A DNA stretch of 63,891 nucleotides, filler included, from Sluysia triapertura (lineage: Eukaryota): NCBI GenBank assembly GCA_046118255.1. It is 5 parts of 5 records of this genome, joined end to end, with 100 filler letters (N's around TTAATTAATTAA, not from the genome) between each part and the next. Parts side by side here need not be neighbours in the genome. Positions count along the whole stretch, not along the records: positions 52,803 to 63,891 come from JBJNIA010189054.1; 4 more parts are not named here. The stretch is one strand, 5' to 3'. Shown in pieces: positions 29,004-61,300 of the stretch. Both the position numbers and the translations under genes were made by a program. The notes under the pieces are model-generated. The model worked only from the letters and a program-made list of their open reading frames with translations, was not told where the DNA came from and ran no database searches. The stretch's first letter is position 1. The number at the start of each line of letters is the position of its first letter.

Positions 29004-29149
29004 ATGTTTGGATATAGACATAAGGTGCCATTTTGTATAATTATATATAGTAATCTAAAAATTGTTAGACGGGGCTGATACCTCATTGGTAGAGCATCGA
29101 ACTGCGCAGCTAGAGGTCCCGGGTTAGTCCACTTTATGAAGTCTAACAA
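29004..29149 (+). repeat. tRNA-Ala-derived repeat copy (T arm deleted)
   Basis: ggggctgatacctcattggtagagc...agtccactttatgaagtctaaca with the shared leader. Confidence 0.75.
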
Positions 29150-30758: not shown

Positions 30759-31037
30759 TCATAAGTTTATTTAAACGACTTTGTGTACTTGTCCTAAAGT
30801 AGATATAAACAATGTACTAAACATTGAAATGCCAAAAGATGATAATATAATGAAATTGTCATATAATGAATTCATATTTGAGATTTTTAGAAAGTTTAAA
30901 AATTGTTACGTAATTACTATAAGTGGTTTATAGTTTTAACTGAATTAAGATATATTTAAGGCTTATAACTGAATTAAAAAAGTTTACATTATTAGCTCCT
31001 TACTTCCTGCAATATCAATATGAAGTTTTATTATTCT

Positions 31038-31190
31038 GTTAGACTTCATAAAATAGACTGACCGGAGATCGAATCCGGGACCTCTCGTGTGCAGTTCGAA
31101 ATCTCTACCACTGAGTTAACGATTTTATTTTATTATAGTCAATTTTATCAAATGGCACTTTAGGCTTTTTTATCCCAACAATTCTACTTA
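31038..31190 (-). repeat. tRNA-Ala-derived repeat copy
   Basis: ctcagtggtagagatttcgaactgcacacgagaggtcccggattcgatctccggtcagtc plus shared leader and tail. Confidence 0.75.
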
Positions 31191-31779
31191 ATTTATAACT
31201 TTTCAAATGTAAATAAACTTACACTATTAACACGATTTTAAGTTATTTTTATTACATTAAATAACATACATTCTTTTATACTTTTAAATATTAATACTTT
31301 AGAGAAAATTTTCTAATTTAATTGAAAAAATTTATTAAAATATTCTATTAACATGTATTTCGGTTTTTTGTTTTTTGTAATTAGTTATAACTTGCAAAAC
31401 ACTTACTCTTTAACAAATTCAAGAAGATAATTTTGTACGTGTACTATTACTACATATCTGATAGATGCAAAGAATTCGTTGACAATGAAGCACTAAGTAA
31501 ATTTAGGAAAACTTTATCATTTACATAATCATTTATTTTATTTATTTGTAAGACAATTTAAAATTTTTGAATTTCAAGCACTTCATGTTTTATTTAGGTT
31601 TCACTGTTTAAGAAAGCACACTTTGTGTTAATCAGTAAATAAGGCTAAACTGATAATCTCTTTCATTTATTTTTAAATTTGTAAAATTTTAATTGTTTTA
31701 ATATTTGTAGTTTTAGCTTTCTACATTTTTGATTAGACATGGTAAAATTGACGCTTTTATAAAATGTAATTTTATTTAG

Positions 31780-32214
31780 AGCAAGCGAAAAGTTGAAATT
31801 AACATAACTGATCAGTTTGTGAAATCAATGGAAAATCAAAGCGAAAGTGAATTTAACAATCTTGATGTACCTGAACATTTTAAATATGGTGTTCATTACG
31901 ACGATGGATACAATTACATGCAACATTTAGTCAGTATGAAAGATTTCAAAAATCCTAATTTTGAGTTACCAGTAATTAATTTTCGCAAAGATTCTATCGC
32001 TTCTGTCTATAAAAGTGAAGTTGAGGACAATTTATTTGACGAAAGTAATAGCCTGAATGAAGAAGAAGCTGACGAATTTTTTGAAAATTTTGTTAACAAT
32101 AATGAAGCAAAAACTGTAAAGGAACAGCCACAAAATGTAAGGAACAAAAAAGTGTCATTTATGGATGGTTTTGTAAAATGTCTTTCAGAAATTACAAACG
32201 ACATTCATAAAGAA
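31780..32214 (+). CDS. LTV1: LTV1-like 40S ribosome biogenesis factor, internal exon (gene partial or degenerate)
   Basis: KYGVHYDDGYNYMQHL matches the LTV1 YG.F.DD.YDY.QHL motif, followed by an acidic region; ag/gt boundaries. Confidence 0.7.
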
Positions 32215-33974
32215 GTAAGCATTTCAGTATTTTAAGGCAATGAGCCATTTTTTTAAATGAATGTATTTTTTAACATTATTGAACCATTTTCATTACTACT
32301 AATATACACTTTGTCATTAAACAAATAAAAAATTTTATATGCAAATGAAAAAATTATTCAAGTGTAATTAAGATTAATAAGCTTAATTAAATCACTCATT
32401 CTAAACTTTAATAGAGTATTCTTTAATTGGATTCACATCAACTTCGTAAAATTATCCTTCATGTTTATAATGACTGAAACATTTAAAATTTTCAAAAAGT
32501 ACGACAATTTTACTGAAAATAATTTAAAACGAAACGAAAACATCTTAGTAATATTTATAGCTTTAAATATATTTTAGACTTTGAAATTATGAAAGAAATA
32601 TATCTCAAAATCCATAAATGTGCAGCCAAAGTAATTCTTCATTCACTGATAACTAATATAAATTTTAATAATTGTATTTTGATTTTGTGAGGAAATCAAA
32701 CAGCAAGTATACTTTTAGAAATAAGAATTCATAAAAAAGGAAAAGGGTGGTAGTAAAACCATATTCTAGCAACGAAGATTGTCAATAAAATAGAAGTTGT
32801 GTCCGGACAGTCTGAGGCGACTTTGAAAGAAATTAAAAGAAAAATGAAATGAGTTAACAATAACAAAATCAATCATTCGTCGATGCCTAAGATACTCAAG
32901 TTATCACAGAGAGAAATAAAAGGAGTAAATGAATTGAATAAAATACAGTTAATGCTTAAATAAAAATGCAAATATTGGATTCAACATATATAAATTTTTA
33001 TTGTGTGTTTCATGGACATCTTATTTTTATTACTATGATTTTATTAAAATCAAATTGTACAGATTATTATAAAAATTATCTAATTAAATTATATTTTGAT
33101 GAGTTTCATTAAAGATTTTACTTTACTGAAACAAAATTTGTTATTAATTTTTTGTTACAAAAATGTTTAGGTTTATTCTATACATTTTTATGCGTTACAT
33201 TTATTTTTTATGTATTGTAAATGAACAGCATTTTAAATCGTAAAAAGTATTTATGTATCTTGAACATTCGCGCTGATATGGCTATGTGATTAAACATTAG
33301 ATCTAATCCGAAGTTTTATTGAGGTACGTAGAATTTTTATTAATATTAAAATTATTACTGTAACTAATTAATACTTGCAAATTGACAGGAAAATGTTTAT
33401 TTCATTTTTATGTAATAACGATAATTAAACAACATTTTTAAAACTATAAAGTAATAAAATATCATGTTTTCGACATATTGAATGATCCTTGCAACCAATT
33501 AAACAAGAATTTCAATCACTTAGCTGAATAATCCCTTTTCAAAGGAAATAGAACTTATAGGAAGATACTAAATGTTCAGGAAACTTGGTCGAAGTGAATT
33601 TCTATATTAAACTTGGTCAATAATAGAATTTCGAATGTATAAACTTATAATAAAAACTTATAAAACTTTCACTTTTACGAATCATGATGTAAGCTTTAAC
33701 ATTATTGGATATGAACTTATGCTTGTCCTGGTATTTTAACTTATGGGTTCGTTTATAGTCTACGGTTTATGTCTGAACGAGGTGGTAGTTCTAAATATGA
33801 CTCCTTAATTTTCTTTTATAAATCACTATCCTAAAATTCTTACTCTTTTAACTAACATGAACTTTTCTGGAGTCTTAACTAGATTTATGAATATTTTACT
33901 TTAATTTGAGTAATTGCTACAATACACTTTCCAAATTAAATAACTAATAAGACGCAATTGCAAATAAATTAATT

Positions 33975-34920: not shown

Positions 34921-37379
34921 AAGTGTTTCCTAACGTGGGGCCAATTTGAAAATGGAATCGACAAAACTTTAACCCTTTCGTCCCGGGCTATTTAAATGCA
35001 GTGCTAGATATCGGTGCCAAATTTAACAAAAGAAGCAAATTCTTAAATAATTATCAGATATAATTTCGTTTGACGAGACCAAAATATAACTGGGTGATTG
35101 GTCTCGTCGAATAAACTTGGCTCGTGGTTTACCGCGAAGTGTGCAGTCTGACGGGGTGGGGCGGAACCCGGCCAGTCAAGAAATTCGCACCTAATTGGCC
35201 TATCATTACAGCTGTAGTGTTTCACATCATTCTGAAATAAATGTCCGTCAAAATTGTAGTAGAAGCTCGTTTTTTATAAATATACATATTTATTATATAG
35301 ATATAATTGGTAAATATTTTAATTTATTTCAATTTTAGAAGCATAACTTTGCAGAGTTTTTTCAAATAGAAAAAATTTAGGTACCTATGGATTTGCGGTG
35401 GCAGTATAGTAAATGTGTTATATACATTTAAATAAATATGAATTTTTAGTATACATTTGCTCTATGTCACAGTGAATTAATTTTAACACATTTTAATATT
35501 ATTAAAATGAGTAATGCAAGCAAGAAAAAAACTCGTCAATGTTCGGAGGAATACTTAAATTTGGGTTCATACCTGCTGTTCAAGATACGCGGATTCTTTT
35601 TTGTCTTTTATGCCAGCAATACTTGAGTAACAAATCAATGAAACAAAGTCGTCTTGAGGCGCATTCGAAGGCGAAACATAGTGCTCATATTAATTCAGAT
35701 TTGAGTTACTTTAAAACATTGAAGGAAAACTTTGAAAAAAGAACAAAGTCGCTAATTACTGCCCATACTTAAACCAATAATCTTGTTCTTGAGGCTAGTT
35801 ATCAAATTTCTTTATCGCTAAAACTGGAAATCACACTATAGGAGAGAATTTAATAAAACCGTCAGTACCAGCATTTCTTAAAATGGTTCTTGAAAAAGAT
35901 GTAAAAGCTATGCCACTCAGTAAAAATACTGTTAGCAGAAGAATAGACGAAATGAGTGAAGATATGGAAAACAACTTGTTGAAAAGCTGAAAACAAGAAA
36001 ATTTTCAATGCAAATGGATGAATCAACTTTGAGAGATGGTGGGGCAGTATTGATAACTTACTTAAGATATATTGATAAAGATATATTGTAAAATATTAGA
36101 AAACGCCGCTACTCTCAAAGATATATTTAATAAGCTAACAAAGCTACTTAAATGTCAATATGACAATGAAAAATATAACATTTTGTGCTGCAGATGGTGA
36201 TCCAAATATGATGGGCAAGAAAAATGGTTGCTTAAAATTGGTGAAAGATGCGAATCCAGAAATGATTCTTGTGCATTGTGTTATTCATAGGCAAAACTTG
36301 GTAGCTAATAACATATAAACATACTGTAATAAAATGTGTTAATGTTATTAAAGCTAGTGCCAAATATGAGTCTTTTCAAGCTATTTTGTGAAGAACAAAA
36401 TGAAAACCATGTAAGGCTTTTACTTCATACTGAAGTAAGGTGGCTATCTAAAGGAAACTGCTTGAAATGATTTAAGGAACTGTTTGATACTCTTAGTGAT
36501 TTTTTAAGCGACAAACCAGAAATGAAGCATCTATTAACAATCGATGGTAAAGCCTTTGTGAGTTATTTAGCCGATATCTTTAACAAACTAAATATATTAA
36601 ATAAGCAACTTCAAGGAACAAATAAAACTCTTGTCGATGCAAAAGCGAAGATATTTGAGTTATGGCAGAAACATATTAACAACAAAAATTTGAACAGTTC
36701 CACTGGCTCCAAAAATGTGAAGTAACTGATAACGCTGTACTTGTTATTGTAAATCATTTGAATAATTTATCTGCCGATTTAAAAGAAAAATTTTTAGATT
36801 TAAAACAAATTTATTTCCCAACATGGATGATGCAGCCAATGTTAGTGGATTTGTCTGATATATCAAATATGCAGTATCAAGTTAAACTCGCCGAATTGCA
36901 AAATGATGACTCAGTTATATAGTATAAAAGATGCGATGGCATGGCTCAACCATCTTCATTTTTGGCTGAATGTGAATTTAGTGCTGTAAATGATTTACTG
37001 ATAAAAAAGAAATCGGCTGGATATAACACAACGTGGGGATTTGAGACTGAAATTGGAACCCAATATAAAATCTCTCTGCAGCAAGCATCAAGCACAAGGA
37101 TCTCACTACATTAAAATAACAAATTAATATAGAAAAATTATTATTAAAATTATTTGGAATTTGAATTTCAGTTTTTCATTATATGTTTTGAAATTTTACT
37201 TACTCTGTTTTTTTTAACAATTTGATAGTGATTTATTCTTAGAATCCATCATTTATGTTTCTTAAGTGAACAAATCAGTTTTTTTAATGTTACATATTAC
37301 GCATGTTACATAGGGAGAGGCATAAAAACTTTCGAAAGATTAAAGTGGGGCATGGCACAAAATAGGTTGGGAAACACTG
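34921..37379 (+). mobile_element. Near full-length hAT Charlie/Buster transposon
   Basis: TIRs (c/a)AGTGTTTCCTAAC / GTTGGGAAACACTG enclosing a transposase. Confidence 0.92.
35507..37113 (+). pseudogene. ZBED5/SCAND3-like hAT transposase, frameshifted
   Basis: BED finger CLLC...HSKAKH, QMDES, ADG.PNMMG, HCVIHRQNL, LLLHTEVRWLSKG, YLADIF, QAQGSH. Confidence 0.92.
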
Positions 37380-39252: not shown

Positions 39253-41390
39253 TAAAATTATTTTTGATCTTACAAAATTATTTTTGATCCTAACTAAAGA
39301 AAAGTTATTACAGAATAAAATAAACATTGACAAAGAAATAAATAAATTTCCATAAGTTATTTTAGTTAGATTATAAGTTATTAAAAAAATTAACTGTATA
39401 ACTTAATCGTACTACTCAATGATAGTTAATAGTATAGTATAATTAAAGCACAATTATTACTAAGTGAAAAAAATTCTTTGAATTTGAAATTACATTGATT
39501 AAAAATTGTCAAGCTTTGAATAAATGAAACTTTAACGAAATTACGTAACTCCAATAAAATGTAAGAGAAAAATATATACAATTTGAAATTTAAATTAAAT
39601 TAATTAATTTTATGTATATAATTCTTATTTATATTTTATAATTTTTGATTTATTTTATTGGAACACATAATAATCATAAAATTATTTTGTAATTTTCTTT
39701 TTTTGATCAACAAAAACATTTGAAATTCTTTTTCAGATATTAAACTTTTTATTTATTTAAACTTTTCATTATTATTTTATTTTTATTAGTATTATTTAGA
39801 TGAATATCGTTTCTATATAGAAATTGAAAATTTGGATTACCTTGAGAATTAATACAGATGTTTCCAATCGGATTTAAAAATTTTCCAACATACATAATTC
39901 TTGTTTGATTCAAATTATCAAAAACTTAAAATTAATGATTGTTTTGAATTTTAAGAGCATAATACAATATATAACTACTTTATCAATATAATAAATAATG
40001 ATATTTGAATTATATTTTTAAATTAATTTATAAAATGTTATTATTATTTTTATTTCTTTATTTAGTTAATAATGTAAAATTAAAAAATATGAATTTACAA
40101 TAAAATTCAAACATTAATGTAAAGATTTGTTCATAATTATATGTAAGAAATTATTATAAAACAAAAGAAAAATAAATGACAAATTATAAAATTTTACAAT
40201 AGTATTAAAATTGTAATTTAAGCCTTTACAGCTTACAAAAATCAGATCTGTTTTTTTGTTGCAATATAACTAATTATTTTCTTCACTTTTTTTATAAGTA
40301 ATTTATTTTAAATAACATATCATAAATTTGTATTATTTATATCACACAATTCTTTTGTATTTTAAAATAAATCTTATTTAAATGAAATGTAAATATTTAA
40401 GAAGTAAATGTAAATATGTAAATTTTATGTAAATTTAATTTTAATTTTTAATAATTTCTAATTTTGTATTAAATTATATCAAATTAAATGTAAATTAATT
40501 ATTAAATTTAAACTTTGAAACCAAATATTTATAAAAAGGAAATTAGCATTAAAAATAAATGNNNNNNNNNNNNNNNNNNNNNNNNNNNNNNNNNNNNNNN
40601 NNNNNTTAATTAATTAANNNNNNNNNNNNNNNNNNNNNNNNNNNNNNNNNNNNNNNNNNNNGTTGCGTAATTTATAAAATATAAAAGTCTTATTGAAAAC
40701 AACACCTAATAAAGGGTTGTAGAAGTAATTAACTAATATTAAATATAACAGTTAATAGTTTAAGAAAACCTAATAACACGTCTCCAATTTTTGTGTAAAA
40801 CGTATATATTAGGCGAACCGACCTATCGGATAATTTGTTAAGTATAAGAAAAATACTAGCAATATTTTAGTTAGTGCATGACTCGAGATGGATGGTAAAC
40901 CATCACATACAGTCATATGCACGATCTTTACTATATTTACAAAATTAATTCTTTATGATTTTAATATTACATATGACCCAACATGAGTGGGAGTACCATT
41001 ACATATGGTCAATTATGCAATATGTATTAAAAAACCTATATGAAGAAATGAGCCCTATACCTGATAAACAAATAAAATTTCGGGATAACGAAGTTAATTA
41101 TTAAGGTTAACAAAGAAGTTATTATTAAAATATAGTTTATAGTTGTGATGAAGTTATTGTTGGGCTCTCTCGTAATTGGACAATTAGTGTTTTCTTACTT
41201 ATATTCATACCTATATTGGTAGAATTCGCACTTAGGTTCCTGTTTCTATTGATAGCGACTGAAGTGATATTCGTATTCTTGTCATAAAGTATATTCGTAG
41301 CATTGTTAATGATTTTAAGTATTTTTCCTAATTTTATGTCCGAACCATTTTCGTTCTTATCTATGATTGGTACTTATACATCATGGTATC

Positions 41391-42260
41391 TTATTGTTGG
41401 CCATCATGTAATTCTGTTTTTCTCAATATCCAAAATTTGATAAACATGAGTCTATTAGTCGGGATATGATATAGACAAACAGTATCATTAGGCAATGTCA
41501 TTCCGAAACGTAAACCGTCAGATAGTTCGTACGCAATTATCAATGTATTATTGTATAACGGGTTATGAATACGTATAACATTTCCGAGATAGCGATATAT
41601 GATCATTGGAAACTCAATTACTGTTGAAGATTGTCGGAAAACAAATGGTTTAGTTCTTATCTTGTAATACCGTATCAAGATAGTTTTGGAGTTACTTTGA
41701 GAGTCATATTCTAGTTCCATAGTTATTGTTACGCTAATTAGTTGGTATTCGGCAAGATCAATGCAAGATATAAACCAATAGAAATCCTGTTTAATTGCCC
41801 TTGTCTCAATTTCACACCAATCCATTGTACAACATTTTATTTTAACGGAAAATAATTTAATTTTGTCTGTTAATATCTTAGCATAAACATCTTTCCGAGT
41901 GGCTACTAAAATTATTCTAGGTGTATTGTTTTCTGATAAATAATTTGCGCTTGATATACAAGATAGATAGATACATATCAAGATTGTAGATTTTACTTGA
42001 ATCATTTGACAGTCTCCGTATATGAGAGGTATTTGATTATTTGTAGCGTATTCATAAATTGGAGGTGGAAATATTGGCATACCTGGAGGAGGAGGAGCGT
42101 AATTGTTTCTGTGAGGAACTGTATACGCGTCGTCATCGTCATTATTTTTGTTATGCGGTAAGCATGGGTATCGACATCTATTCGAAACGAACATAATAAT
42201 AGTCAATATCACTATAACTAAAGCAATTACGAATAGTATTGCCGCACAATTAGTATCACT
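41391..42260 (-). CDS. Element-borne membrane protein: TM, proline-rich PPxY tail, second signal-like segment and ~180 aa domain
   Basis: 273-aa ORF whose open frame extends upstream to AAILFVIALVIVILTIIMFV; APPPPGMPIFPPPIYEY; ILICIYLSCISSA. Confidence 0.6.
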   Translation of the reverse strand, partial: SDTNCAAILFVIALVIVILTIIMFVSNRCRYPCLPHNKNNDDDDAYTVPHRNNYAPPPPGMPIFPPPIYEYATNNQIPLIYGDCQMIQVKSTILICIYLSCISSANYLSENNTPRIILVATRKDVYAKILTDKIKLFSVKIKCCTMDWCEIETRAIKQDFYWFISCIDLAEYQLISVTITMELEYDSQSNSKTILIRYYKIRTKPFVFRQSSTVIEFPMIIYRYLGNVIRIHNPLYNNTLIIAYELSDGLRFGMTLPNDTVCLYHIPTNRLMFIKFWILRKTELHDGQQ

Positions 42261-42754
42261 AACGCTGGATCATTCCGTAATATCTCCAATATGGTTAGAT
42301 GTTTTCTTGTTCCTTTAAATGCAAAGTGCAAGTATTTTGATGAGTGACGGTATTTCAGTATAATATGTCTATCTTCAACAGGTAAAATATCGGACAGGTA
42401 AAACCAGACAGGGTCCTTTAGTTCACTATTAATATAATTTTCGTATATAACCCATGCGCTAAAGTTAAGTCTGGCAGGTTTCAAACATGCAAATTTGGCA
42501 TGAATGTTTTCATTCAATATTTTAACTTTTACTTCATTGTCTCTATTATAGAATTCAAAATATTCCGTTTTAAAAGATTGTTCGTGACATTGAACTACTG
42601 TAATTATGGTAATCAAAATTAAAGGTATAAGATTTTTATTGTTTGCGGGAACCCGTATTTTCTTACCTATTTGGTACACATAGAGTATAGTCCAAAATAT
42701 GTATAGTAACGTAAAAGTTAGTAATATTATAAAGAATTTATAAGATTGTTCCAT
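42227..42754 (-). CDS. Element-borne membrane protein (TM, signal-like segment, ~115 aa domain)
   Basis: FFIILLTFTLLYIFWTILYVY then LIPLILITIITVVQC. Confidence 0.6.
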   Translation of the reverse strand: MEQSYKFFIILLTFTLLYIFWTILYVYQIGKKIRVPANNKNLIPLILITIITVVQCHEQSFKTEYFEFYNRDNEVKVKILNENIHAKFACLKPARLNFSAWVIYENYINSELKDPVWFYLSDILPVEDRHIILKYRHSSKYLHFAFKGTRKHLTILEILRNDPALVILIVRQYYS

Positions 42755-42786
42755 TGTACCGTTTGCAGTTGAATTGTTTAAATTAC

Positions 42787-43248
42787 CTATTGATTTTTTA
42801 ATCGTGCCATAATCAGATAAGGTGTCTGTATTTTCGTTGTTTCCTCGTTTCGCAACTGATCTATTTGCTTAATAAATTTCTGAATATCCCGTGTATTTCT
42901 TGGAGTGTCAAAAGAGAAAGTTATTAGCATTGGTCTATAACCGTAATCTAGACAATGTGGGATACCGTCTAAATGATATGGCTTTCCCAATAATAATTGT
43001 TTCAAATAGATACAATAGATTTCGAATTTGTGTCCAAGAATCATTTTCTTAGAAATGAATTCGAATTTCCAATATTGATTGTAAATATCAGTAATCATTA
43101 TTTTCTGTTCCCTGCCATGATTTATAGCTATATTCATATTTTTATATTCTTCGTCCGTTTCTGTTGCCATGACATTAGTTACAAGTGATAGAAAAATCAC
43201 AATTAAGATAGAAAACCAACAAGTTATTTTCCCAAAACGATTTTTATT
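42787..43248 (-). CDS. Element-borne ORF with signal-peptide-like N-terminus
   Basis: Open frame KNRFGKITCWFSILIVIFLSLVTNVMA-TETDEEY..., overlapping the end of the protease ORF. Confidence 0.55.
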   Translation of the reverse strand, partial: NKNRFGKITCWFSILIVIFLSLVTNVMATETDEEYKNMNIAINHGREQKIMITDIYNQYWKFEFISKKMILGHKFEIYCIYLKQLLLGKPYHLDGIPHCLDYGYRPMLITFSFDTPRNTRDIQKFIKQIDQLRNEETTKIQTPYLIMARLKNQ

Positions 43249-43908
43249 AAGACAGTTTCTTCATTATGGTATCCTGAATATATGAACTGATTTCTGAATC
43301 CGAATTCTCTTCTGGTGTAATTGATGATGGTGAATCCCATGACACGTCTGATAAATGAAGTGTAGATTCGACGATGTCAGGTAATGGTAAGTCTGGAACT
43401 TGTAATGGTGGATTTGACATTGGCATTTGATATAGAGTTAATTCATCACCAACCTGTGGAACTAATAGTTGCGGTCTAATCATGTTTGAACCTGGTGGTT
43501 TTTTTATAAATCCATATTTGCTGTGAATAACCATATCTTCCAATTTGTTGATAACATCCATTCCCAGTATTAATTCATATGGGCTATTATCCCAAACATT
43601 TACTAAAGTTTGTACCTATTGTCCTAATATTTTTATATAGCATGATAGAGTTCCACTGATATTTATAGGTGTTTGATTTACATTATATGTTATTAAACTT
43701 GGTCTGTTTGGGAATATTTATGAACCACAGTAATAGTAGCGCCGGTATCTACAATTGTTCTAACCCATCGTCCATTAAATCGTACATTTTGCATTATATG
43801 AGCTAAGTCATTTCCATGAGAATTCATCATAAATACCACTTGTTTATTTCTTGGTGCATGAATTGAGGGCGGTTTATCTTGATCCTTATGTCTTAGTTGA
43901 ACCTTCAA
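43247..43908 (-). pseudogene. Retropepsin-like aspartic protease plus Pro/Ser-rich tail
   Basis: VRFNGRWVRTIVDTGATITVV ... YELILGMDVI; interrupted by stops/frameshift. Confidence 0.85.
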
Positions 43909-43968
43909 TTTTGATTTTTGTACCTTTCTATTTCTTAAATTGTACTCTTCTTTTGGTGCAATTTTACA

Positions 43969-44660
43969 TCAATTAACGTGTATTACGAATGTTTCGGAAT
44001 TAATTTTGTTAGGATCTTTAACAAACACATTTGTATCGTTAACTTTTGTTATTAAATAAGGACCTTTAAATGGTTTATGCAGTTTAGGTGAATGTCCGGG
44101 TTTAGTTATTGGATAATATATTAATACTTCATCACCTATTTTAAAAGTGTGTTCCTTCACTGTTTTATCGTATACATCTTTATATATTTCTTGAGAATAT
44201 TTAATTTGAAGACCTGCACGTTTCCATGCATCTTGTAATTGTTCTCTCATTGTTGTTGCATATTCCGGAATTTCCAAGTATTGTGAGGTTCCAAATCCAC
44301 TGGCATATTAGAATGTCTGCCGTACATTAAATAGAATGGAGTAAAATTGGTTTCTGGATGTACAGAACCCTTGTAATCAAAAAGACATGGCGCTATATAT
44401 AAGTCCCAGTCAGTCTGTCTATCGTTTACATAAGATTGAATCATATTAATAAGAGTTCTGTTGAAACGTTCCACTTATCCGTCAGTTTGTGGATGGTAAG
44501 GTGATGTGTAAATTCGAAGAATATTAAAGATTTGATTACATCACTGGTAAAGTTAGTTCCTTGATCTGTTAATAATTTTCTAGGAGTTCCATATCTGTAA
44601 ATTATCTTTTCTACCAATATTTGAGCCACCGTTTCGGCTTTTTGATTAGGTTTTTGGTTA
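43969..44660 (-). pseudogene. Gypsy-type DDE integrase core plus GPY/F domain
   Basis: AETVA, YGTPRKLLTDQGTNF, TSPYHPQTDG*VERFNRTL, TPFYLMYGR, FKIGDEVL, KLHKPFKGPY, IHVN. Confidence 0.95.
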
Positions 44661-45279
44661 ATGTGCGGATTTTGGACCACCAGGTACGTTTATCCGCGAG
44701 GCTTCCAGTGAGCCACTGAAGTGCTTGTGTTAGGTTTCCGTCACAACCCTACAAAATAATTTTAAGATGTCATAATGACACCTATTTAAAACTATTTAAA
44801 GTTACAAAAAAAATCGTTTGAAACCATGGAAAATATTTTAAAATCCTTTATTAATCCTTAAAATTATTTAAAAAACAATTATTTTCCAAAAAATAAATCA
44901 TTTTTCCTAAAAAAGAAAATAAAAATTCTAAAAAAGAAAATTAGCTTATATAAATAGCTTCTATATTCTAGAACATTCCATCGATTTTCACTGGATGATG
45001 ACTAGTATATAAACTAGCATCAATACAATGAAAATCGCCATTTTTAAAATCTTTATTAGTCAGTCGTTAAAAAATTTATCACGTGACGCAGTTATTCGCA
45101 TTCGTAACAAAGCAGTTCGAAATCAATTAACAGTAAATGCCATTCAAATCTACGCTAGTTAAATATTCAAAGGATATTGGAAAGATTATTCATTCGGATT
45201 TTTTGATCAGTTACAATCCATGCAAAAAGTAATTTGTTTGTGTTAAGATTGGTATTAGTTTTGATTAAGGAAACTAATA

Positions 45280-47906: not shown

Positions 47907-50900
47907 ATGAAAGTGGATTTGATATGGAGTGGTATCGTTTATGATAAAGACAAATCAGAGAAATGGTAAGATAACTTATAAATAAGTTTTTAAGTATATT
48001 TCAGTATATGGGATGCTAGTTTTAGTCCGAACGGTGAAAAAATCATAATTGCGACTGAAAAACTTGTGATTGTTTATAATTCATCTGATGGTTCAAAAAT
48101 CAAAATCCTAAAAAACCATCGTAGTTTAGTATATTGTGTTAGCTTTTCGGCAGATGGTAATACATTTGCAAGTGGTTCTGCGAATGGAGCAGTAATTTTA
48201 TTTAACAGTGAAAATTATGAAGCAATATTAAAATTTGTGTATAATTATATTTTTATTAACTTTTTTAAAGTTTAAGTAATGCAATTCAATGTTTGTCATT
48301 TAATCCAATCACCAATATATTGATAAGTGGTGCTGTAACTGAGTTTGCTTTATGGACACCAGAACAAAAGGCAATTACAAAAGTAAGAGTATCTGCTAAA
48401 GTAACTTGTTGTAATTGGACTACGGATGGTCAGTATATGGCATTAGGTTTATATAATGGTACAATTAGCATACGAAATAAGGTATTTTAATTTTGTTAAT
48501 TATTTAATAAGAATGGAGAAGAAAAAGTAAAACTCGAAAGAAGTGGTGGTGCAAATATGCCTGTTTGGACTTTGGAATGGACTAGGTAATCTCTTTTTAT
48601 TATATATGTTAAAAATAGGGCAGACCAGGTTGACATTTTAGCTGTTGGAGATTGGAGTCAAAAGTTGACGTTTTATCAATTAACCGGTAAAAAAGTAAGA
48701 TATTGCACTGATTTAACATTTTAAAGGTAGTTTATTCTGATGGTACAACTGATGTACAGTTAGCTTTAAAACAAAGGGTACTATAATTTTTCGTTTGAAA
48801 TCATTTTTGATTTACAAATGAACCTCATTAATAAATGATAATAGTTTTATTTTTCAGTAATTATAAAATACTTTGTAACTTCGATTGACGACAAAAATAT
48901 CTAACATAATTAAAGGTTCGTTTGTTTTCAAGTTCAGTTTCAATTTGATTTTACATGACAAATTTAATGATATAGGTAATTAGAAGAAATGTTAGGTTAT
49001 TGTATTATTTAATTTAAGTTTTTGTTCATACTAATTTATTTTATCAATATTTTTCAATAATGATAGCAAAACATAGCTTTAATTCTTTCGGCGCAGTTGT
49101 CTCAATTGTCTCAATCGCCTTTGATGAGAAAACGTAAGTAATCATAATGTACGTTCCATTCGCTAGATAAAGCTCTAGTTTATTTATTAAGAGATAAACA
49201 TTTAAAATTTAAAATATGTTTTATTAGTACTCTGGACTGGCCAAAACTTCATTCTTAATATATATTTTAAGATACTTCATTAAACTTATTATATAGTCTC
49301 ATTCTGTATAATATTCTGCACCACATATTCATACAAAACAACCTAAATGTATAGAAGTATAACTATAATTAATTAATTTTCTCTTGTATTTGTTGAACGA
49401 CAATTCTATCATGTACTTCGAATTGTTTTAAAAATATTTTTTCTGTTGAGAATGTATTATTTTCAATCCACTGATTTATTAACTGACGTACCTGTTCAAT
49501 TTGTGTACGCTTACAAAACAAGCTATATATTACAATCTTCACATAAACAGTGAAACGATTGCCACTTATTTGTCTTTATTATTTTATAAACAAATATTTC
49601 TTTTAACTAATACCGAATCGATTAAAATTCGAAATTCTATCTATCCTAACGGAAGGATGAAAGTGAAGTTTAACTATATTAAAAGTAAGTCTAAAGTTAA
49701 CTGAGTAAGTTTTATTTACCATAATAAATATAATTCGACTACGATGATTATAAATATACAAAATGTAACAGATAAAACATTTAATGTTAGGCACTTAATG
49801 CTTTGTTTAAATATATGAATATAAGTGAAAAGTCATAATTTATTTTTAAGTTTTGTAACAAAAATTATTGTATAACGAGCTTTGAAAATCATTTAATAAA
49901 ATTTCAGATTTATTTTGGACTTATAATTTAGCAAAATAAGATAGGTTTCAAGACATTCTCAAACACAGTATTGACTGAAATATCGTGAACTTGCGCCAAA
50001 TAAGTGAGATATAGAATAACATTTAAATTTAAATTTATTTTGCAAAACTCAGTAGTAAACATAGTAAATAAAAAGATAAAATTATTAAATAATATAATTA
50101 ATTATTATTGTTGTTAGTGTTCTAGCAACCTTATTTCGAAACTATGTGTGTAACTTAGTCAATATTCGAAATCTTATTTTTCATATGACGAATCAGCATT
50201 TAAAAGTAAAATAATGGTAACATTAATGAATAGTTATTACATTTCTACTGACAATAAAAATAGTAATAATAATAATAATAGCAAAAATATATTAATTATT
50301 AAATCTTAAAAGCTTCCCCCGAAAGCAGGGTAAATTAATGTTTTCAAAACCAAATGTGTCATTGATATTTCATAAAGAATGCCGTTTGTTATCATTGGCC
50401 AGAGTAAGGTTTTTGGAATAACCGGAACATGGTCTGGAGCTTGAGTTGAGTCAGCAGACACAGCAAGTTCTGACTGACGGATTTCTGGGTACCGGGAAAA
50501 AATATGATTCATATAGATCCGATATGACATCTTCAGCACTCCAGTAGAAATTTCAACCAGCAATTTGTTTATTGCCGATTTACCGAACTCAAAAGTCCTA
50601 GGAATGCTAATGTTATCAGGATGTATTGTGCCAATAACCGGAAAAGATGAGTAAATACCGAATAAATACTTAATTACAAAGCATTATTAATATTAAATAT
50701 AAATATTTGTTACCTTGTAGTCTAGTTTGGAAATTTTTAACTATTCGTCTTCTAATCAACGTTTTGTATTTAAATGTGCATATTTTGTAAAAATATTTAC
50801 ATATTTTAAGAATTAAGTAACCTAAAATAATAGTAATTCAATAACATTAAATAATAAATAATAAATAAAAGATTTATGTATTATAAATATCTAATAAAAA

Positions 50901-51867
50901 TGTTTTGTTTAATTGTTTTAGATTGGTAAAGAAATAAATCTAAATTTTGATCCTTGTCGTGTGTCATGGATGCGTAATAATTATTTGTTAGTTGCTGGAT
51001 CCAACAAAACGTTACAGCTTTATTCAAAAGATGGCATCAAATTAGACGATATTTATGAAACAAAATCTTGGATATGGTGCTGTAAAGCGAAGCCAAAAGA
51101 TGAAAATCGTGTAGTTAGTTTAGGTTTTAAATTAAAGTTTTTATCTGACAATTAAAGGTTCATAATATTGGCATATAAAAATAATTATACAATTAATACT
51201 AATAATAGCAGTAGAAATAGAAATAGAAATAATTGTAATAATAGTAATATTAACAATTATAAGTAATATAATTATAATAATAATTATGTGATAGTTCTAA
51301 ATTAGTGGACAAATATCCAAATAAATCTTCAATATTGTTAAAAGAAAACCTTTTGTCACTAATCAATATAAACCAAATAATCGTAAAATTTTGTAACAAT
51401 GAACATTCTTAATTTAACGTATTTTCATTATTGTAAGTCATTATCATGGATATTGTGCGGAAAAGGAGAAATGTATTGTTAATTGCTAATAAAATCTTAC
51501 TTGGAAGATTAACTGAAAGTGAATCATAATCAGAATTTTGTTATAATCAATCATAGTCAGAAAATGAACCAGAATGCTTTGACATTGAAAGTATTGTAAT
51601 TTAAAGCTAAAGTATATGCTAAATAAAGCAGTGAACACCCTCTCTGGTCATTCATTGACTTTAATTAGGCATCTTAATCGACTATCAACTAAGTCTTAAA
51701 TTAGAATAATCCTGAAACATCATACGAGTCTTATTTTAGGGGAAGCAGTATAGATTTTAACTAGATGTTATTAACAATAACAACATTTTTAGATTTCCAT
51801 ATTCTTATACAAAATATTGGATTGAATAATAAATATTTATTTTCTAATAAAAATAAAAGGAATAAGA

Positions 51868-52105: not shown

Positions 52106-54059
52106 GTATGGTTTCAAATTATTAGTTTTAATTTATTTTATGAAATTTAATATTAATTATTTATCACCATTTTCATATAAATAATATTAATTTCTTAAAT
52201 TTTTATTTTCTCTCTGTGTGTGTGTTGGATGGAGATTTCATTAATTATAAAATAATACAAGGACCTTTAAATAAACCTTTATCTTCGTGATAACATTTTT
52301 TCTTCAAGTGTTTGTGCATGTATAAGTCACACTAGAACTTTTTGGAAGTTATGTATAGAAGATCCCAAGGAAAACTTGATGATGCCTTGAAAATATTGAT
52401 ATTGTATGTGAAATATAAAGTTTTAGATTGTTTTAGAAAAATGGCAAAATGTTTACTATTGTTTCTTTGCAAGATTTTTCAATCTTCTGTCGTAATAACA
52501 ATTTATTATATTATAAATGACAAAACTTCATTATAAAGCATGTTAGAATAAAAGTATACAAAATGTTCAAATAAATTTCAATAAAAATTACTACTTAATT
52601 AAAAAATAAGTAGTAATTGATACTTAATAGATTAATTAAAACAAATTCAAAATTTTAAATAATATAATAGAAATTACGATTAAAATCTTTTATTGTCATT
52701 TANNNNNNNNNNNNNNNNNNNNNNNNNNNNNNNNNNNNNNNNNNNNTTAATTAATTAANNNNNNNNNNNNNNNNNNNNNNNNNNNNNNNNNNNNNNNNNN
52801 NNTAATAATACAATAATAATAATGTAAAAATTATGAAAAATTTGTAATATATCCAATTATTCTCTACGTTGAGTTCTTATGTCTCAAATGAGTGTCAATA
52901 ATTATATACCACCATTAATTCACTTAACTTGTTTAAAAGTTTAACTTAATCTAAATACTTATCTTTAATGTCGTGAATCTTATACTTGTCTCAGTTGTTC
53001 GTAAAAGTTTTCTTGAATTAAATTTCTATTTTTACAGAGTCAATTGAACTTTATTTAATTTATATTAATTTATGAATCATATTGGATTATCTCTTTATTT
53101 GGTAAACTTTACTTTGTTTTACGAAGCTTCAGTTTATCTTATAACACTGTATTTTGTTTCGTAAAACTCTATCTTACTCCTAAAAAACTATGTTATTTCT
53201 ACAGAACTTTATTTCTCAAAGATCTTTTTTATTTTGCATCAACTTTGTTTTATCGTAACTTTTAATTTATTTCCCAGAGGCTTTATTATATTTAAAACCT
53301 ATTTTTTTCAATCCTTTTAATATGAATAAAATATGATTAATATGATTAACTTTTACAAATGAATGTTAAAATTATATTATATTATTATATTATATTAAAC
53401 TAAAAAACATTTAAAATATGCAGAAAAAAAAAATTTAACAAAATATTTGCTTAATTCGGAGTTAGTTAAACCTTCTTCATTAATAACCGCTATATATTCC
53501 GCGATTAATCTCGATCAATAACAACAATGTATTCAGCGAAAAATCTCGAAAAATAACCAAAACGTAAGTTTTTGTACTGTCTTTACTTTATTGCTATACG
53601 AAAATTTTAGTGACATTACAGTTTTAGTTTCATTAGTCTTGGTTTTGCATTTGGATCATTTTAGTTTTGTTGTGTTCCGTGATCATAATTAATAAGTGAC
53701 TTTTTGTGTGCTGCGTTGGCACCATTTATTAGAAATTATTTTATACGATAAATAGTTGTAGTGACCTTTTTTGCATCGAAGTAATTTAAAAGTTTGCTTA
53801 TTTCAATATCTTTTCTATTATATTAATATTAAAGGCTTTTTATTCTCAGAACAGAATAAAAATATATTAAATTTTATAATTTTAATCATAAAATGATTTA
53901 TATACACCAATCTTAGGTTTGACTGTACTTCTTATTGTACCTTAATATTGTGTCGTTTTTTGATGTTTATTTTCGGTTCTACTGAATGATTAGGTACGCT
54001 TAGTTCCAGTCTACATCATCCATACCCTGATTTTCATTTTCTTTGTTCATTTGTTTTTC

Positions 54060-55956: not shown

Positions 55957-58420
55957 TTATCGTACATGGCAACGCATTACGCAAAAATCAGAATGGTGAG
56001 CAAAGAAACATTTATAATATTTACGTGAGGGAAGATTAAAATTTATTTTGTAGGAAAAGGAATGTAATAAACTCAAGTATATCATAAGAGAAGTTGGGTT
56101 ATAACTTAATTCGTCCTCTGTGGATCGTTTTAACATCTTAGTTATTTGATGCATGAATTAAACAGAACTACTATTTTCATTGTTGTATCTGTGTGCCCTA
56201 CATTATTCATATCTATGCAAAGTTTTAAACCACTTATCAAAATTAATTCAAGATTGTTGGTGAAGTTTATTCCTACTATGACTAAAGTTTAATACATATT
56301 TAATACATATTAAAAACAATAATACTTATTTTAAAAGGGTGAACTACCCAATAACAAAAAAGATAAGAGAGTTTATCAAATAAAAATTTTTAACTAAGAT
56401 TCTTTACAACACAAGTACGCACGTACTTAGGTGAAACATGAAACTCGAGCGAAACTCTGGTTAAACCGCTATCCGAGAAAGCAACGATATTTACCATTCT
56501 CTAATCAGGAACGGCGGCCGGTTCATCCATACATCTTCTTTAGTTCGCCGTGGTGAGTATAGCCACGAAATGTGACTTCATACTTAGAAACCGAGTATTT
56601 AATGCTTTTGCATTTGAAAATCATTTATAAGTCAACGTTTTCATCCTTTGCAACGCAATGTCATTCAACAGCTTTAATTACTTCTTTACAATGATCAAAT
56701 ACTTGAAACTTTCTTCGTATGTTACGTAAGGGTCTTTAATACACATTCGCTTTAAACACATGTTAACATCAACACTTTCATCTCTTAAATCATCATATGG
56801 TTCAATTGTTCCATTCAGCTATTTAGAATAATCACATTCTTGAAATTGACCATTACATATCACATCGAAGTCTAGAATGCATTCTTGCCTGAAACTCAGG
56901 TTAAGATCGACGTTATCAAAATATTTTCTTCTGAAATTAGCACCTAAATAAAAACACTGCCGATATTGTATATAATTTAAAAAATTTATCTTCTACTAAT
57001 TTTTAATCTTTTAATAGTCTTTTAGAACAACCTTGACTCTTCCTTTTATCACAATCTTTATGCAATGTTTATTTCGGCGGTTTATTCTGCAAGACTAGTT
57101 TTAACAATTTGCTACTTTTTAGCAACCTTTTTACTATTTCATTAATTTTTAAAAATCAATTCTTTTAATAATCAGTTTTCTTTAATTATGAAACTTTTAT
57201 GCAGCAACGTTAGTTTTTATTTAGTTGAAAATAAATTTTATTAATTCTCAGGTCACTTATTACTCATGAAGCTTCTACAAAAATCCTAGCTATAGAACGT
57301 GATGATTTACATACATGTGAAACTTCCTTTTGCTCATAGAATACGTTGTTGTGAACATAACATACGCAAACAAAAATACTTAAATATAGTACAAAAATAT
57401 TAAGGATATTTATGCAAATAGCAAAAATCTAATTGTTGTACGAGTTAAACAAGATACATCTTTGTTATTTAATCGTTTCGACCAATCCAAGGATGCTTTT
57501 TCCGTCAATTTATGAGTCAATTTTGTTTGAAATTTACTGTCAATATAATTATCGACTATAGTAATAGTTGTGTTATTTGATATAAATAAAACCAATATTT
57601 CTGATAAATGTTTCAATTTATTCTTTTACTGTGTCAAAAATTTATTCTTCAATTATAGATGAATAATTTATTAAACTTTATTGGAAAATTAAATTTTGGT
57701 AAACTAAAAGGCGATGTTTATTTTGATCAAGATTTACTACTTTTGAATAACTATGAGGCAAATGAAACTGTTTCAAAATGATTTTGTAGATTACTGCTTC
57801 TGATTATCACTTCCACTTGAATTTGTTAGAGGCAAGCAGGAGAAACGCCACCTTTATTCGATTTCTTCTTTGGCTGTCTGTTTCATGTCTCCTGATTGTA
57901 CATTTTGTTTAATAAAGTGGTTTTCATTATTTTTAACTATATATTTTACAATAGTTAAATGATTCCGTTTGATTTTTTATTATTGCTATTCTTAGAGACA
58001 CTAATTTGAATGCAGATTTTGAAGGATTTGAACTTATGTCGGCTCGCTGACCTTGAGTAATATTAGTAAGTTTTGATTGGCTTAAATCAAGTAACTGGGT
58101 GAATAAAATTATTTGGTTGGTTAAGGAAGTATTAAACAATGCTGTTTCTAATTGAAATGTAGTGATTAAATCGTTGCTAAACTTGTCACCATTTGTGATT
58201 CTGAAATAGATTGCATGAAGATAGATGACGATATTTGCTTAGTGATATAACTATTATTGATTACAGTCAAAATAGAAGGACAATTCTCTTCATTATATGC
58301 ACTAATGCTAAATTTTGATTTAAGGTCAAGATTTAAAGCGTTTCTTTTGATAGTTGGAGTTTGAGGTTCAGTTTCCACCTTGATCTCATTACTATTTGAC
58401 ATTTCTATTTGATTTCAAAT
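55957..58420 (-). pseudogene. Coding-like region broken by stops; unidentified gene remnant
   Basis: Series of minus-strand ORFs and an acceptor-like site near 56945, with in-frame stops. Confidence 0.3.
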
Positions 58421-59279
58421 GTTGGAGTTTTTGATTCTAATACTTCATTCCTTTGTTTGATTTACGAGGTTATGATTTCTCTCAATTTTTAAGACGTTAC
58501 AAATCAAAATCAATCAAAATTTTGTATGCCAATGTAAAATGTATAATAATTTTGTAGAATTATTATAGAAGTATTTTGTAGAATTAGTAATAACATAATT
58601 AAAAGATAAAATTAATGAAATAATAAATTTATTTCTCATAGGAATCTTTTGCACAATACGTTGTGCGTAAACCATAAGTCGCACGTCAAGTTCAATAACA
58701 TATTTGAATTAGTATCTTTATTAGCATTAATTTGATGTATAACTTTATTAATACTTAAACATTGGAACACATTTAACTTTAATTTTAAAATATAAAGACT
58801 AATTAAAATAACTAATTTTTACGTTATCTACGTTCTTATCTGCTTTGTAATACTTCATCATTAAAAATATTAATAAAACTCAGGATTATAATATTATAAT
58901 ATCGTGAGAAAATATTTCTTATTAAGTTATCAAATTAAACAAATTTTAATTAAGTTAATTAACAAATAAAGCCCTTATTTCTTATTCCTTGAGCCGAAAA
59001 TACCGAATTTCTGCTAGCTTCATTTACTGTGAGGATCAAATAAAATTAAATATTAAATGCAACATCCTTGGTGAAAACGAAGTCATATTAAATCGGTTTC
59101 ATAAAGAGAAAGTATGTAAATATATTTATGAACTTATTAAAATTTCCAATAGCAACATTTGGAAATCCCACAAAATCTAAGATCGCTTTGTAGAATGCTT
59201 CATGAAAGTGCTCTATCTGATCGCGCGTTTTCCTTACAATTAAACTGCAGTTGGATTTTTACGATTGAAGCTAGAAATG

Positions 59280-61300
59280 GTATTGCGAGTATTTTTCTAT
59301 ACCTAACAAATTATCCGAAAGGTCGGTTCGCCTAATATATACGCTTTATACCAAACTTGGAGACGTATTATTAGGTTTTGGAATTTTAAAACTTAACTTA
59401 AAGTCTAAGTAAATCGATTAGTTACTTTTAGCGTTTATTTGATAATACAATAAATTGATTCTACACTTAGTGTTTATTTTATACTTATAACTAAACAACT
59501 AAATAAAAATTAAATTGACTTTTCTAAGTCGTTGGATTTTAATTATGTTCCACAACCCTTTTATTAAGGTGTTGTTAAATAAAAGTAGGTTTCACAACTC
59601 TCTTACTGAGATGTTGTATAGAAAATATGATTTTATGAGTTTACACAACCCTTCTTTAAATTAAGGTGTTGTTGAATGAAATAGATGTTTATTTATTTAG
59701 TTGTATTACTTTATTCGATTCTCAACAAAACAAAAAATCGCTTAACACACTAAAATTTTATTTGTTTCAAAATACTAAATACTTACAACTAACTTATATA
59801 ATAACAATATTCAATTTACTTAATTGAACGCTGTGGTTGATTAATCAGATTTTATTAGAAGTTACTCAACCCTTTATAAATTAAGGTGTTGATAGAAAAA
59901 TAAATACTTTAATTTAAGTGCAAATTTAAATATCCCTGTTTAAGGTGATATTACAATAACCTATGTAATAAAAAATTACTTTTGTAACATGGAAATTGAA
60001 TAAATCGATTCTTCAAATGATATTTTTCCTTAAAAACTTCGCTTCTAAATTTTTAAATCTTTTTCCTAAAATCTTCGATTCTAATTTTTCAAATCTTTTT
60101 CCTAAAATCAAAAAATTTGGTTGTCTGCTATCTAAATGTTCATTCTGAAAATTTTATATAAAGCTTACCTACTTATAGAAATATTTTTGCAATATGGCTT
60201 CTAATAAAGCTTTTTAAAATAAACAAAATATTTTCCAAAATTTAAACAAATGAATTTTTTACTACTTTAAAATTATTATTTTTAGTTTTGTTATTAAAAT
60301 TATAAATTATTATTTAATTATTATTTATTTTTTATTTAATAATTTTATTTAAATTTAAAATTAGAAATTTTATTTAGATTCATTTTAAAAAATTTATTTA
60401 ATTATTAGAAATTTTATAATATTAATTTTAAAAATAAAAATAAAACACAACAAAAATTACACATTAAAAAACATAAAAAACCTTTACAAAATTAATAAAT
60501 GAAATAAAATAAAATCTTTTAAATTAAATAAAATTAAATTTTACTTTTAGTTTCCTTTAAATAATTTAAATTTGGTTTTTGTTCAAATAAACTAATTTCA
60601 ATTTCAAATAGCAAATAATAACAAACAAGAAAACAATACGGCGACTGAAAAGTTTGCTATATAATGATAAGAATTCTAGCGAAATTTTCAGAAATTCATA
60701 TTCTATAATTTGAAAATAATCGTCGCAAATTTTCAGTTCCATGTCTAAAGTAAGATTTTGTTATATAGATTGCTCATTCTCACCGTAGCCAGCATGATAT
60801 AAAATACACGAAAAATTATTAATTTGTTTTGACTTAGACCGTAAATGGCTAAGTTAATTTCTAATTAAATTTATCGCACTAAATCAATAGATTTAAGTGC
60901 TAATTTAATTGTTATTATCTTCATTTGTATCTGTAAGAATTCCTATTTATGTCATTTGTATTTGTAAAATTTCCTTTTGTAATATACTTTGAATAAGTTC
61001 ATAGTTATTTATTAAACAAATAAAATATCATTTATCCTCGTTAGACCCTAACAACGTTGGCTAAACATATTAAAATATAAAGAAAATTTTACAATTAGAC
61101 CGTAAAGGCTAATTTAAAATACAAGTTTCAAAGTTAGAACGTAAAAAGGCTAACTCAAAATCTTGTAAATTATTCTCATTATTAATTAAATAATTCCAAC
61201 GATTTAGTAACTAAGTGTTACATAACTAATAGTGCTGCTTACGTGACTGATTCATACGTGACTGTTTACAAAATTGCTAAGATGATACGTGACCCATTTA
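59280..61300. repeat. Non-coding retroelement-associated region with hairpin arrays; left end homologous (inverted) to 40700-40865
   Basis: aaattatccgaaaggtcggttcgcctaatatatacg...ggagacgtattattaggtttt matches the reverse complement of 40765-40865. Confidence 0.7.

What the first reader, a model, noticed from the sequence alone, without database searches (positions are those of the whole stretch)
59550..59955. Array of five bulged hairpins with compensatory substitutions
Seen: ACAAC-CCTT..AAGG-T-GTTGT (59552, 59645), CAAC-CCTT..AAGG-T-GTTG (59867), ACAAC-TCTC..GAGA-T-GTTGT (59594) and AATATC-CCT..AGG-T-GATATT (59929). Stems change sequence but keep pairing and the single bulged base. The same hairpin lies at 40700-40719, 3' of the INT-PR-cargo element. 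Inference: a multimeric protein-binding RNA signal (packaging, export or localisation).
Basis: partly seen in the sequence, partly recalled or inferred. Interest (0 to 1): 0.75.

Follow-up and report, generated by a model that had tools for sequence, protein, structure and literature searches.

The report
Bulged-hairpin array of Burro-like retroelement
Five short hairpins that keep their pairing and one unpaired base while their sequence changes lie at the tail end of a very abundant, likely Burro-type retrovirus-like element, and they likely serve as repeated docking sites for a protein that would handle the element's RNA, a signal we found in no RNA database or paper searched.

Summary
Five hairpins (8-9 bp, loop 5-9 nt, one bulged T on the 3' arm) lie at 59552-59952; shuffles give 0.03 on average. 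A sixth lies at 40720-40699 (-). Across the six, 52 of 54 pair cells pair, five pairs change on both sides (0 of 500 shuffles) and the bulge never varies. Both sites follow the same 100-nt structured block, on the coding strand and downstream of the last ORF of an integrase-protease-cargo element. In two public runs that block, the first hairpin and the integrase draw summed depth of one order, far above the flanks, and contigs join the non-coding tail to the ORFs. The closest proteins are giant gypsy polyproteins; two of ten carry env in frame before pol, as planarian Burro elements do. So this is likely a cis-acting RNA signal in the 3' tail of a Burro-like element. Protein binding, the partner, expression, and 3' UTR versus LTR position are untested. 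Only six related copies were compared, and neutral duplication plus template switching is not excluded. No Rfam family matches. New variant of a known kind; interest 0.45.

The parts
59552..59575 (+). hairpin H1 (5+4 bp, bulged T, loop 5); the family-wide form
   Evidence: summed depth 185,156 (X1) and 365 (X2) in bin 59515-59595
59594..59617 (+). hairpin H2; two upper-stem pairs changed on both sides
59645..59672 (+). hairpin H3, loop 9; shares 5' flank with H1 and H4
59866..59892 (+). hairpin H4, loop 8; outer pair changed on both sides
59929..59952 (+). hairpin H5; two lower-stem pairs changed on both sides, loop-closing pair lost
59281..59379 (+). conserved 100-nt structured block upstream of the array (4-bp tetraloop hairpin plus a long G-U-containing stem)
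   Evidence: 91% identical to 40864-40765; folds; depth 313,153 / 257 in bin 59272-59352
58990..59270 (+). medium-depth repeat segment upstream of the block; possibly the end of another cargo ORF (weak)
   Evidence: depth 10,000-15,000 at 59029-59190; 9 of 15 variant places at third codon positions, p 0.03, but known ORFs showed no such bias
59967..59989 (+). AATAAA then TGTAACA; possible polyadenylation signal and element end (not shown)
   Evidence: depth falls from 3,555 to 298 across 60000; no target-site duplication seen
40699..40720 (-). hairpin H0, first hairpin of the second locus; any further copies are lost at the N spacer 40562-40661
40765..40864 (-). second copy of the 100-nt block, 275 nt downstream of the last ORF
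43972..44790 (-). broken gypsy-type integrase (core in pieces, GPY module); element cut off upstream
   Evidence: Pfam rve E 1e-4, below cut-off; 58-76% identity to top relatives
43250..43968 (-). broken aspartic-protease-like domain directly after the integrase
   Evidence: Pfam gag-asp_proteas E 2e-4, below cut-off; same order in 4 of 10 relatives
41140..43260 (-). four overlapping cargo frames (157, 213, 292, 78 aa) with hydrophobic stretches; no family found

Best explanation
The five hairpins lie in the non-coding 3' tail of a very abundant gypsy-type element that is likely Burro-like, and they likely form in the element's RNA as repeated docking sites for one protein, predicted to act on the long unspliced RNA as retroviral 3' export elements do. 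Shown: the hairpins, their covariation in six copies, the invariant bulge, the shared upstream block, and their place behind the last ORF on the coding strand. Supported by read-derived contigs: membership of a family with depth some hundreds of times that of the flanks. Inferred from relatives: the element is an LTR retroelement with RT, RNase H and in some cases env. Inferred only: the array grew by tandem duplication of a unit of about 45 nt; selection kept stem and bulge while loop length and stem sequence drifted; a protein reads the bulged stem by shape; several copies raise avidity; the job is export or stabilisation of the genomic RNA rather than 5'-type packaging.
For: Pairing kept in 52 of 54 cells, 5 double changes, bulge T in 6 of 6, loops 5-9 nt. 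Same block-then-hairpin order at two loci whose upstream sequence differs. Both stem changes between the two block copies keep pairing only through G-U on the coding strand; joint fold -15.5 sense against -7.4 antisense. Summed depth: block 313,153 / 257-266, H1 185,156 / 365, integrase up to 160,355 / 446, nearby flank 185-230 / 0 (X1 / X2). Single contigs join 40932 to 41536 and 40939 to 43058; others carry hairpins in tandem with other spacers (table 5c). Of 10 top relatives examined, 6 have RT, 8 RNase H, 2 an in-frame fusion glycoprotein before pol, 1 ankyrin repeats, 1 a CCHC knuckle, matching the Burro description (PMC6431247 section 7). Cis elements for export of unspliced RNA are known in simple retroviruses (PMC3856414 section 5); that they lie near the 3' end is recalled. 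Ty1 packaging signals lie at the 5' end (PMC4974528 passages).
Against: Six related copies only; each double change is seen once; the tool warns that related sequences can beat such shuffles. H2-H5 draw only 1-17% of the integrase depth in X1 and 2-4% in X2, so a five-copy array is not shown to be family-wide; the other copies may be absent or under 80% alike. Single hairpins fold about equally well on both strands. Summed contig depth is not a copy number. No relative's 3' tail could be read: none of 25 integrase loci holds such an array, but they are distant or end inside the coding region. No LTR, RT or env lies in the window's own copy. Export over packaging rests on position and analogy alone.
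Confidence: 0.45

Rival explanations
1. The array lies inside the LTR (U3/R), so it would stand at one or both RNA ends and work like TAR or a poly(A)/strand-transfer/packaging hairpin set bound by the element's own Gag or accessory protein.
For: Block depth is 1.95 times the integrase maximum in X1; AATAAA at 59967 and an end TGTAACA at 59983-59989 fit the gypsy terminal pattern TGTNR read backwards (PMC2836005 passages); depth drops to flank level after 60000.
Against: The ratio is 0.6 in X2; no purine run of 10 or more between the last ORF and the array at either locus; no target-site duplication or primer-binding site seen by eye at the candidate ends.
Confidence: 0.25
2. The array is neutral: a quasi-palindrome was duplicated in tandem in a repeat tail, and template switching copied one arm onto the other, giving apparent compensatory changes without selection.
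For: H1, H3 and H4 share 5' flanks (78-84% over 45-54 nt); array make-up differs between contigs; template switching can make multi-base compensatory changes in one event (PMC8794818 passages).
Against: The bulge survives in 6 of 6 copies although arm copying across it should remove it (inference); no one-sided break in the 8 core pairs; H1 and the block stand out in depth from the spacer between them (5,887), as conserved parts do.
Confidence: 0.17
3. The motif is a DNA site for a dimeric protein, two inverted half-sites with a spacer, repeated as an enhancer of the element.
For: Four of six copies carry AGGTGTTG, which resembles a T-box half-site (recalled, no call); DNA hairpin energies are modest, -3.8 to -6.0 kcal/mol.
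Against: Spacer varies from 5 to 9 nt and both arms change together, which a sequence-reading dimer would not need; H2 lacks the motif.
Confidence: 0.08
4. Block plus hairpin is an independent rolling-circle (Helitron-like) repeat whose 3' hairpin was captured several times and which happens to sit beside the integrase element.
For: Very high depth confined to the block and H1; different sequence upstream at the two loci.
Against: 0 of 6 hairpins is followed by CTRR within 20 nt (read; the CTRR rule is recalled); the integrase element is as abundant; contigs join the tail to the ORFs.
Confidence: 0.05

Closest known systems
Burro / GYPSM1 giant gypsy-like LTR retroelements of planarians (PMC6431247, section 7 read)
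   Same: Closest relatives of the window's integrase have gag knuckle, in-frame fusion glycoprotein, PR, RT, RNase H, integrase, ankyrin repeats and accessory domains in one long frame; very abundant; decayed copies with stops and frameshifts; host about 25% G+C, like dugesiids (24.1% in a table of PMC13238120).
   Different: No direct comparison with a Burro sequence was possible; the window copy lacks everything upstream of the integrase; an extra aspartic protease after the integrase and a hairpin array are not in the section read. The primary Burro paper was not held.
Retroviral cis export elements: MPMV CTE and RSV direct repeats (PMC3856414, section 5 read)
   Same: Structured non-coding element of a retroelement RNA, repeated in the RSV case, proposed here to serve the unspliced RNA.
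   Different: No sequence or model match (no Rfam hit at gathering score in the window except one tRNA); units here are 22-28 nt, not 115 nt or more; NXF1 use untested.
Egalitarian-BicD localisation signals, including the I-factor ILS (PMC13186709, abstract and passages)
   Same: Bulge on the 3' strand, free loop, little sequence constraint, more than one stem-loop per transcript.
   Different: Those have helices of at least 6 bp above and below the bulged segment; here 3-4 bp above and 5-6 bp below.
Phage coat-protein operator hairpins (MS2, PP7 type) and HIV TAR (recalled, no call)
   Same: Small stem-loop with a bulge read by one element-encoded protein.
   Different: Those need a defined loop or a larger bulge; here the loop varies in length and sequence and the hairpin is naturally arrayed.

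Membership tests
Burro-like giant gypsy LTR retroelement | gypsy-type integrase with GPY module | tested here: met
   rve hit below cut-off on an 82-aa piece; GPY motif in the frame; 58-76% identity to top relatives
Burro-like giant gypsy LTR retroelement | env-like fusion glycoprotein in frame between gag and pol | tested here: inconclusive
   present in 2 of 10 relatives; the window copy is cut off upstream of the integrase
Burro-like giant gypsy LTR retroelement | RT and RNase H | tested here: inconclusive
   6 and 8 of 10 relatives; absent from the window fragment
Burro-like giant gypsy LTR retroelement | paired LTRs, PBS, PPT, length over 20 kb | not testable with these tools
   no genome held; no purine run of 10 or more in the tails read
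Burro-like giant gypsy LTR retroelement | very high copy number in a planarian host | tested here: inconclusive
   summed depth hundreds of times the flank, not a copy count; host inferred from composition and relatives only
Egalitarian-type localisation signal | upper and lower helices of at least 6 bp | tested here: not met
   3-4 and 5-6 bp against PMC13186709
Egalitarian-type localisation signal | bulge on the 3' strand, two or more stem-loops per RNA | tested here: met
CTE / DR export element | match to a described RNA family | tested here: not met
   Rfam gathering search of the window and E-value search of 58900-60300, best E 0.28, none at gathering score
CTE / DR export element | NXF1-dependent export of unspliced RNA | not testable with these tools
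   needs a reporter assay
Helitron 3' terminus | hairpin followed by CTRR about 10 nt on (recalled) | tested here: not met
   0 of 6 within 20 nt, read
Ginger1 DNA transposon | integrase with C-terminal OTU or Ulp1 cysteine protease, no RT | tested here: not met
   C-terminal domain is aspartic-protease-like; closest relatives carry RT; PMC2836005 passages

The most novel reading that the evidence does not exclude
A giant env-bearing animal retroelement tags its own RNA with a natural array of operator hairpins, read by shape through one bulged base by an element-encoded protein, an animal counterpart of a tandem phage-operator tag that sorts a very long genomic RNA for export or encapsidation.
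Probability: 0.2. Interest if true: 0.7.

Novelty: new variant of a known kind. Interest (0 to 1): 0.45.

Why it matters
How retroelements with RNAs of tens of kilobases get them out of the nucleus and into particles is open, and no cis-acting RNA signal for Burro-like elements turned up in the searches made. A 22-28-nt unit with built-in compensatory variants is a cheap handle: it can be probed, mutated and used as bait for its binding protein without touching the element's genes, and it marks the 3' tail of an abundant repeat family for annotation. If neutral, it is a tidy case of false covariation. Structured signals in retroelement tails are a known kind, so the surprise is moderate.

Tried and rejected
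No genome is held, so genome-wide mapping was replaced by two contig lay-overs. No RNA holder listed. Rfam: one tRNA hit in the window at gathering score, five sub-threshold hits at 58900-60300, none credible; ribozyme folds were looked for by eye and not seen. A covariance model of the six copies found only those six in the window at E below 0.01; the next 27 matches had E 0.68 or worse, so the lone bulged hairpins at 45022-44996 and 41225-41203 are not counted. Pattern scans: the conserved block has 0 matches in metagenome contigs; the hairpin pattern gave 51 viral and 74 metagenome loci, each a single match, none of the 125 with similarity over 40 nt to the element or with more than two such hairpins in 431 nt: chance. 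Integrase-related loci: 2 viral and 23 genome loci; the closest (L128, 60%) ends inside the coding region; none of 25 has an array, maximum 3 hits in one 67% G+C locus. Word-index protein searches found nothing for a cargo frame or for integrase-protease; Atlas gave no usable hit; cargo frames show no similarity to relatives; a single-sequence fold of one cargo part was unusable, pLDDT 39.6. The codon-position test for segment 59030-59160 is not relied on. The repeat at 58620-58970 has no folding signal (z 0.26) and is treated as separate, although one contig joins it to the block. Five look-ups of earlier findings returned nothing. Ten paper searches (listings of up to 25 rows seen) listed no paper on hairpin arrays in Burro-like elements; the primary Burro paper and its extended data were not held and may bear on this.

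Full report
1. Observation. Gaps between them are 18, 27, 193 and 36 nt. A sixth lies at 40720-40699 on the - strand. All six are the minimum-energy RNA fold of their stretch. A scan for this shape finds 5 in 59540-59970, against a mean of 0.03 and a maximum of 2 in 2000 dinucleotide shuffles; no other 431-nt stretch of either strand holds more than one of the window's 18 hits. On an alignment of the six 52 of 54 pair cells pair, 5 of 9 pairs show a change on both sides (0 of 500 shuffles), 4 never vary, and both failures are in the loop-closing pair. The bulged T is invariant. This is six related copies chosen for being hairpins, each double change seen once, so it supports but does not prove selection.

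2. Surroundings. The window is A+T-rich eukaryotic DNA, about 25% G+C, with IFT122 and LTV1 exons. Four identical 100-base N spacers cut it into blocks of 11-16 kb, which may be separate scaffolds; one such spacer ends the sequence 37 nt after the sixth hairpin, so that array may be longer. Upstream of both hairpin sites lies the same 100-nt block, 59281-59379 (+) and 40864-40765 (-), 91% identical. It folds into a tetraloop hairpin and a long stem; of six differences in its 64-nt core four are unpaired and two keep pairing only as G-U on the strand on which the hairpins were named; the joint fold is -15.5 kcal/mol on that strand and -7.4 on the other. At the 41-kb site that strand is the coding strand of a broken integrase, an aspartic-protease-like domain and four cargo frames, and the block begins 275 nt after the last frame.

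3. Link to the element. No genome is held. Two public runs hold related DNA. Laid on 58300-60700 at 80% likeness (8,375 and 168 contigs), summed depth in X1 / X2 is 185-230 / 0 at the left flank, 313,153 / 257 over the block, 5,887 / 8 over the spacer, 185,156 / 365 over H1, 26,600 / 14 over H2-H3, 843-3,555 / 0-16 from there to H5, and 130-298 / 0-1 beyond 60000. Laid on 40662-44900 (8,752 and 276 contigs), the integrase draws 57,000-160,000 / 176-446 and the protease and first cargo frame up to 84,000 / 154. So block, first hairpin and integrase are of one order of abundance in both runs (ratios 1.95 and 1.15 in X1, 0.6 and 0.82 in X2). The tool warns that summed depth is no copy number; it shows only that all are highly repeated. 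Single contigs join 40932 to 41536 and 40939 to 43058, tying the non-coding tail to the ORFs in other copies, and others carry hairpins head to tail with different spacers. Against a fixed five-copy array: H2-H5 draw only 1-17% of the integrase depth, so they are either subfamily-specific or too diverged to be laid.

4. What the element is. An HMMER search of 1.84 billion proteins with the integrase end and protease start gave 1,566 hits at E up to 0.001, the best at 1e-35. Of ten top hits examined (P0002-P0008, P0012, P0013, P0016), six have RT, eight RNase H, all ten an integrase core, two a Monjiviricetes-type fusion glycoprotein in frame before the protease, one ankyrin repeats, one a CCHC knuckle, and four an aspartic-protease motif after the integrase, as in the window. 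Nine are unnamed; one is filed under a bacterial bin, likely a stray eukaryotic contig (inference). In-frame env between gag and pol, ankyrin repeats, accessory ORFs and thousands of copies describe the planarian Burro elements, and decayed copies are reported from a dugesiid (PMC6431247, section 7 read), whose G+C is given as 24.1% (PMC13238120, passages). The element is therefore likely Burro-like and the host likely a planarian; neither was tested against a named sequence.

5. Mechanism. Most likely (0.45): the tail of the element's RNA carries a conserved structured block followed by a variable number of small bulged hairpins, multiplied by tandem duplication (H1, H3 and H4 share 5' flanks). 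Pairing and bulge are kept while loop and stem sequence drift, which is what a protein reading a kinked helix would impose; repeats would add avidity. Position behind the last ORF suggests a role like the cis export elements of simple retroviruses (PMC3856414, section 5 read; their 3' position is recalled), whereas Ty1 packaging signals are 5' (PMC4974528, passages). Every step after the folding is inference. Rivals: the array lies in the LTR and works TAR-like or in packaging (0.25; AATAAA at 59967 and TGTAACA at 59983-59989 fit an end, but no purine tract or target duplication was found); neutral duplication with template switching, which can make compensatory changes in one step (0.17; PMC8794818, passages), though the bulge survives everywhere; a DNA site for a dimeric factor (0.08); an independent Helitron-like end (0.05).

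6. Comparison. No Rfam family matches. Egalitarian-type localisation signals share the 3' bulge, free loop and multiplicity but need helices of at least 6 bp on both sides (PMC13186709, abstract and passages); these hairpins are too short. Ginger1 transposons carry cysteine proteases and no RT (PMC2836005, passages). Other papers seen as passages only, with nothing on the hairpins: PMC11410931, PMC8532177, PMC8797187, bioRxiv 10.64898/2025.12.11.693146. Ten searches, seen as listings, showed no description of such an array in Burro-like elements; the primary Burro paper and its extended data were not held and no supplements were read.

7. Negative results. A model of the six copies finds nothing else in the window. 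Collection scans gave only chance single matches. None of 25 integrase-related loci has an array, but none reaches the tail of a close relative. Cargo frames have no recognisable family.

8. Verdict. A real, non-random, covarying hairpin array in the 3' tail of a highly repeated, likely Burro-like retroelement; function untested. New variant of a known kind, interest 0.45; 0.7 if it proves to be an operator-like tag for an element-encoded protein (probability 0.2).

Noticed in passing
window 43250-43968 (-); P0002, P0004, P0005, P0007: An aspartic-protease-like domain follows the integrase, and relatives carry up to three such domains per polyprotein; this order is not in the Burro description read.
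   Followed up: partly
window 41140-43260 (-): Cargo frames with signal-peptide-like and membrane-like stretches; one hydrophobic stretch is followed by a proline-rich tail with a PPxY motif (late-domain role recalled). No family or homolog found.
   Followed up: partly
window 40870-41010 (-): Two further long hairpins between the last ORF and the conserved block; the 479-nt tail folds at z -2.78, 1 of 100 shuffles as good.
   Followed up: no
window 58620-58970 (+) and 2487-2824 (-): A separate very high-depth repeat (330,000-430,000 in X1) with no folding signal; one contig joins it directly to the conserved block.
   Followed up: partly
window 12322-12745 (-): A gag-like frame preceded by a 9-nt tandem repeat and a site resembling a tRNA-Lys primer-binding site (recalled; no Pfam hit): likely another LTR element remnant, without these hairpins.
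   Followed up: partly
window 15925-16024, 28337-28436, 40562-40661, 52703-52802: Identical spacers of 44 N, a six-frame stop and 44 N every 12 kb or so; neighbouring blocks may not be adjacent in the genome.
   Followed up: partly
window 21916-22099, 29022-29148, 31028-31198: Three copies of a repeat, one with an Rfam tRNA hit at 21942-22013: likely a tRNA-derived SINE.
   Followed up: no
window 45022-44996 (-), 41225-41203 (-): Lone hairpins with a bulged T of unrelated sequence near the element; not scored by the model.
   Followed up: partly
window 47994-51152 (+), 31780-32232 (+): Host exons of IFT122 and LTV1; transposase-like remnants at about 6400-7100, 8000-8700 and 35500-37100 named from recall, no Pfam hit on the short pieces tried.
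   Followed up: no
L128 1-4655; P0016: Close relatives of this animal-type retroelement sit in records filed as bacterial genome bins, likely stray eukaryotic contigs.
   Followed up: no
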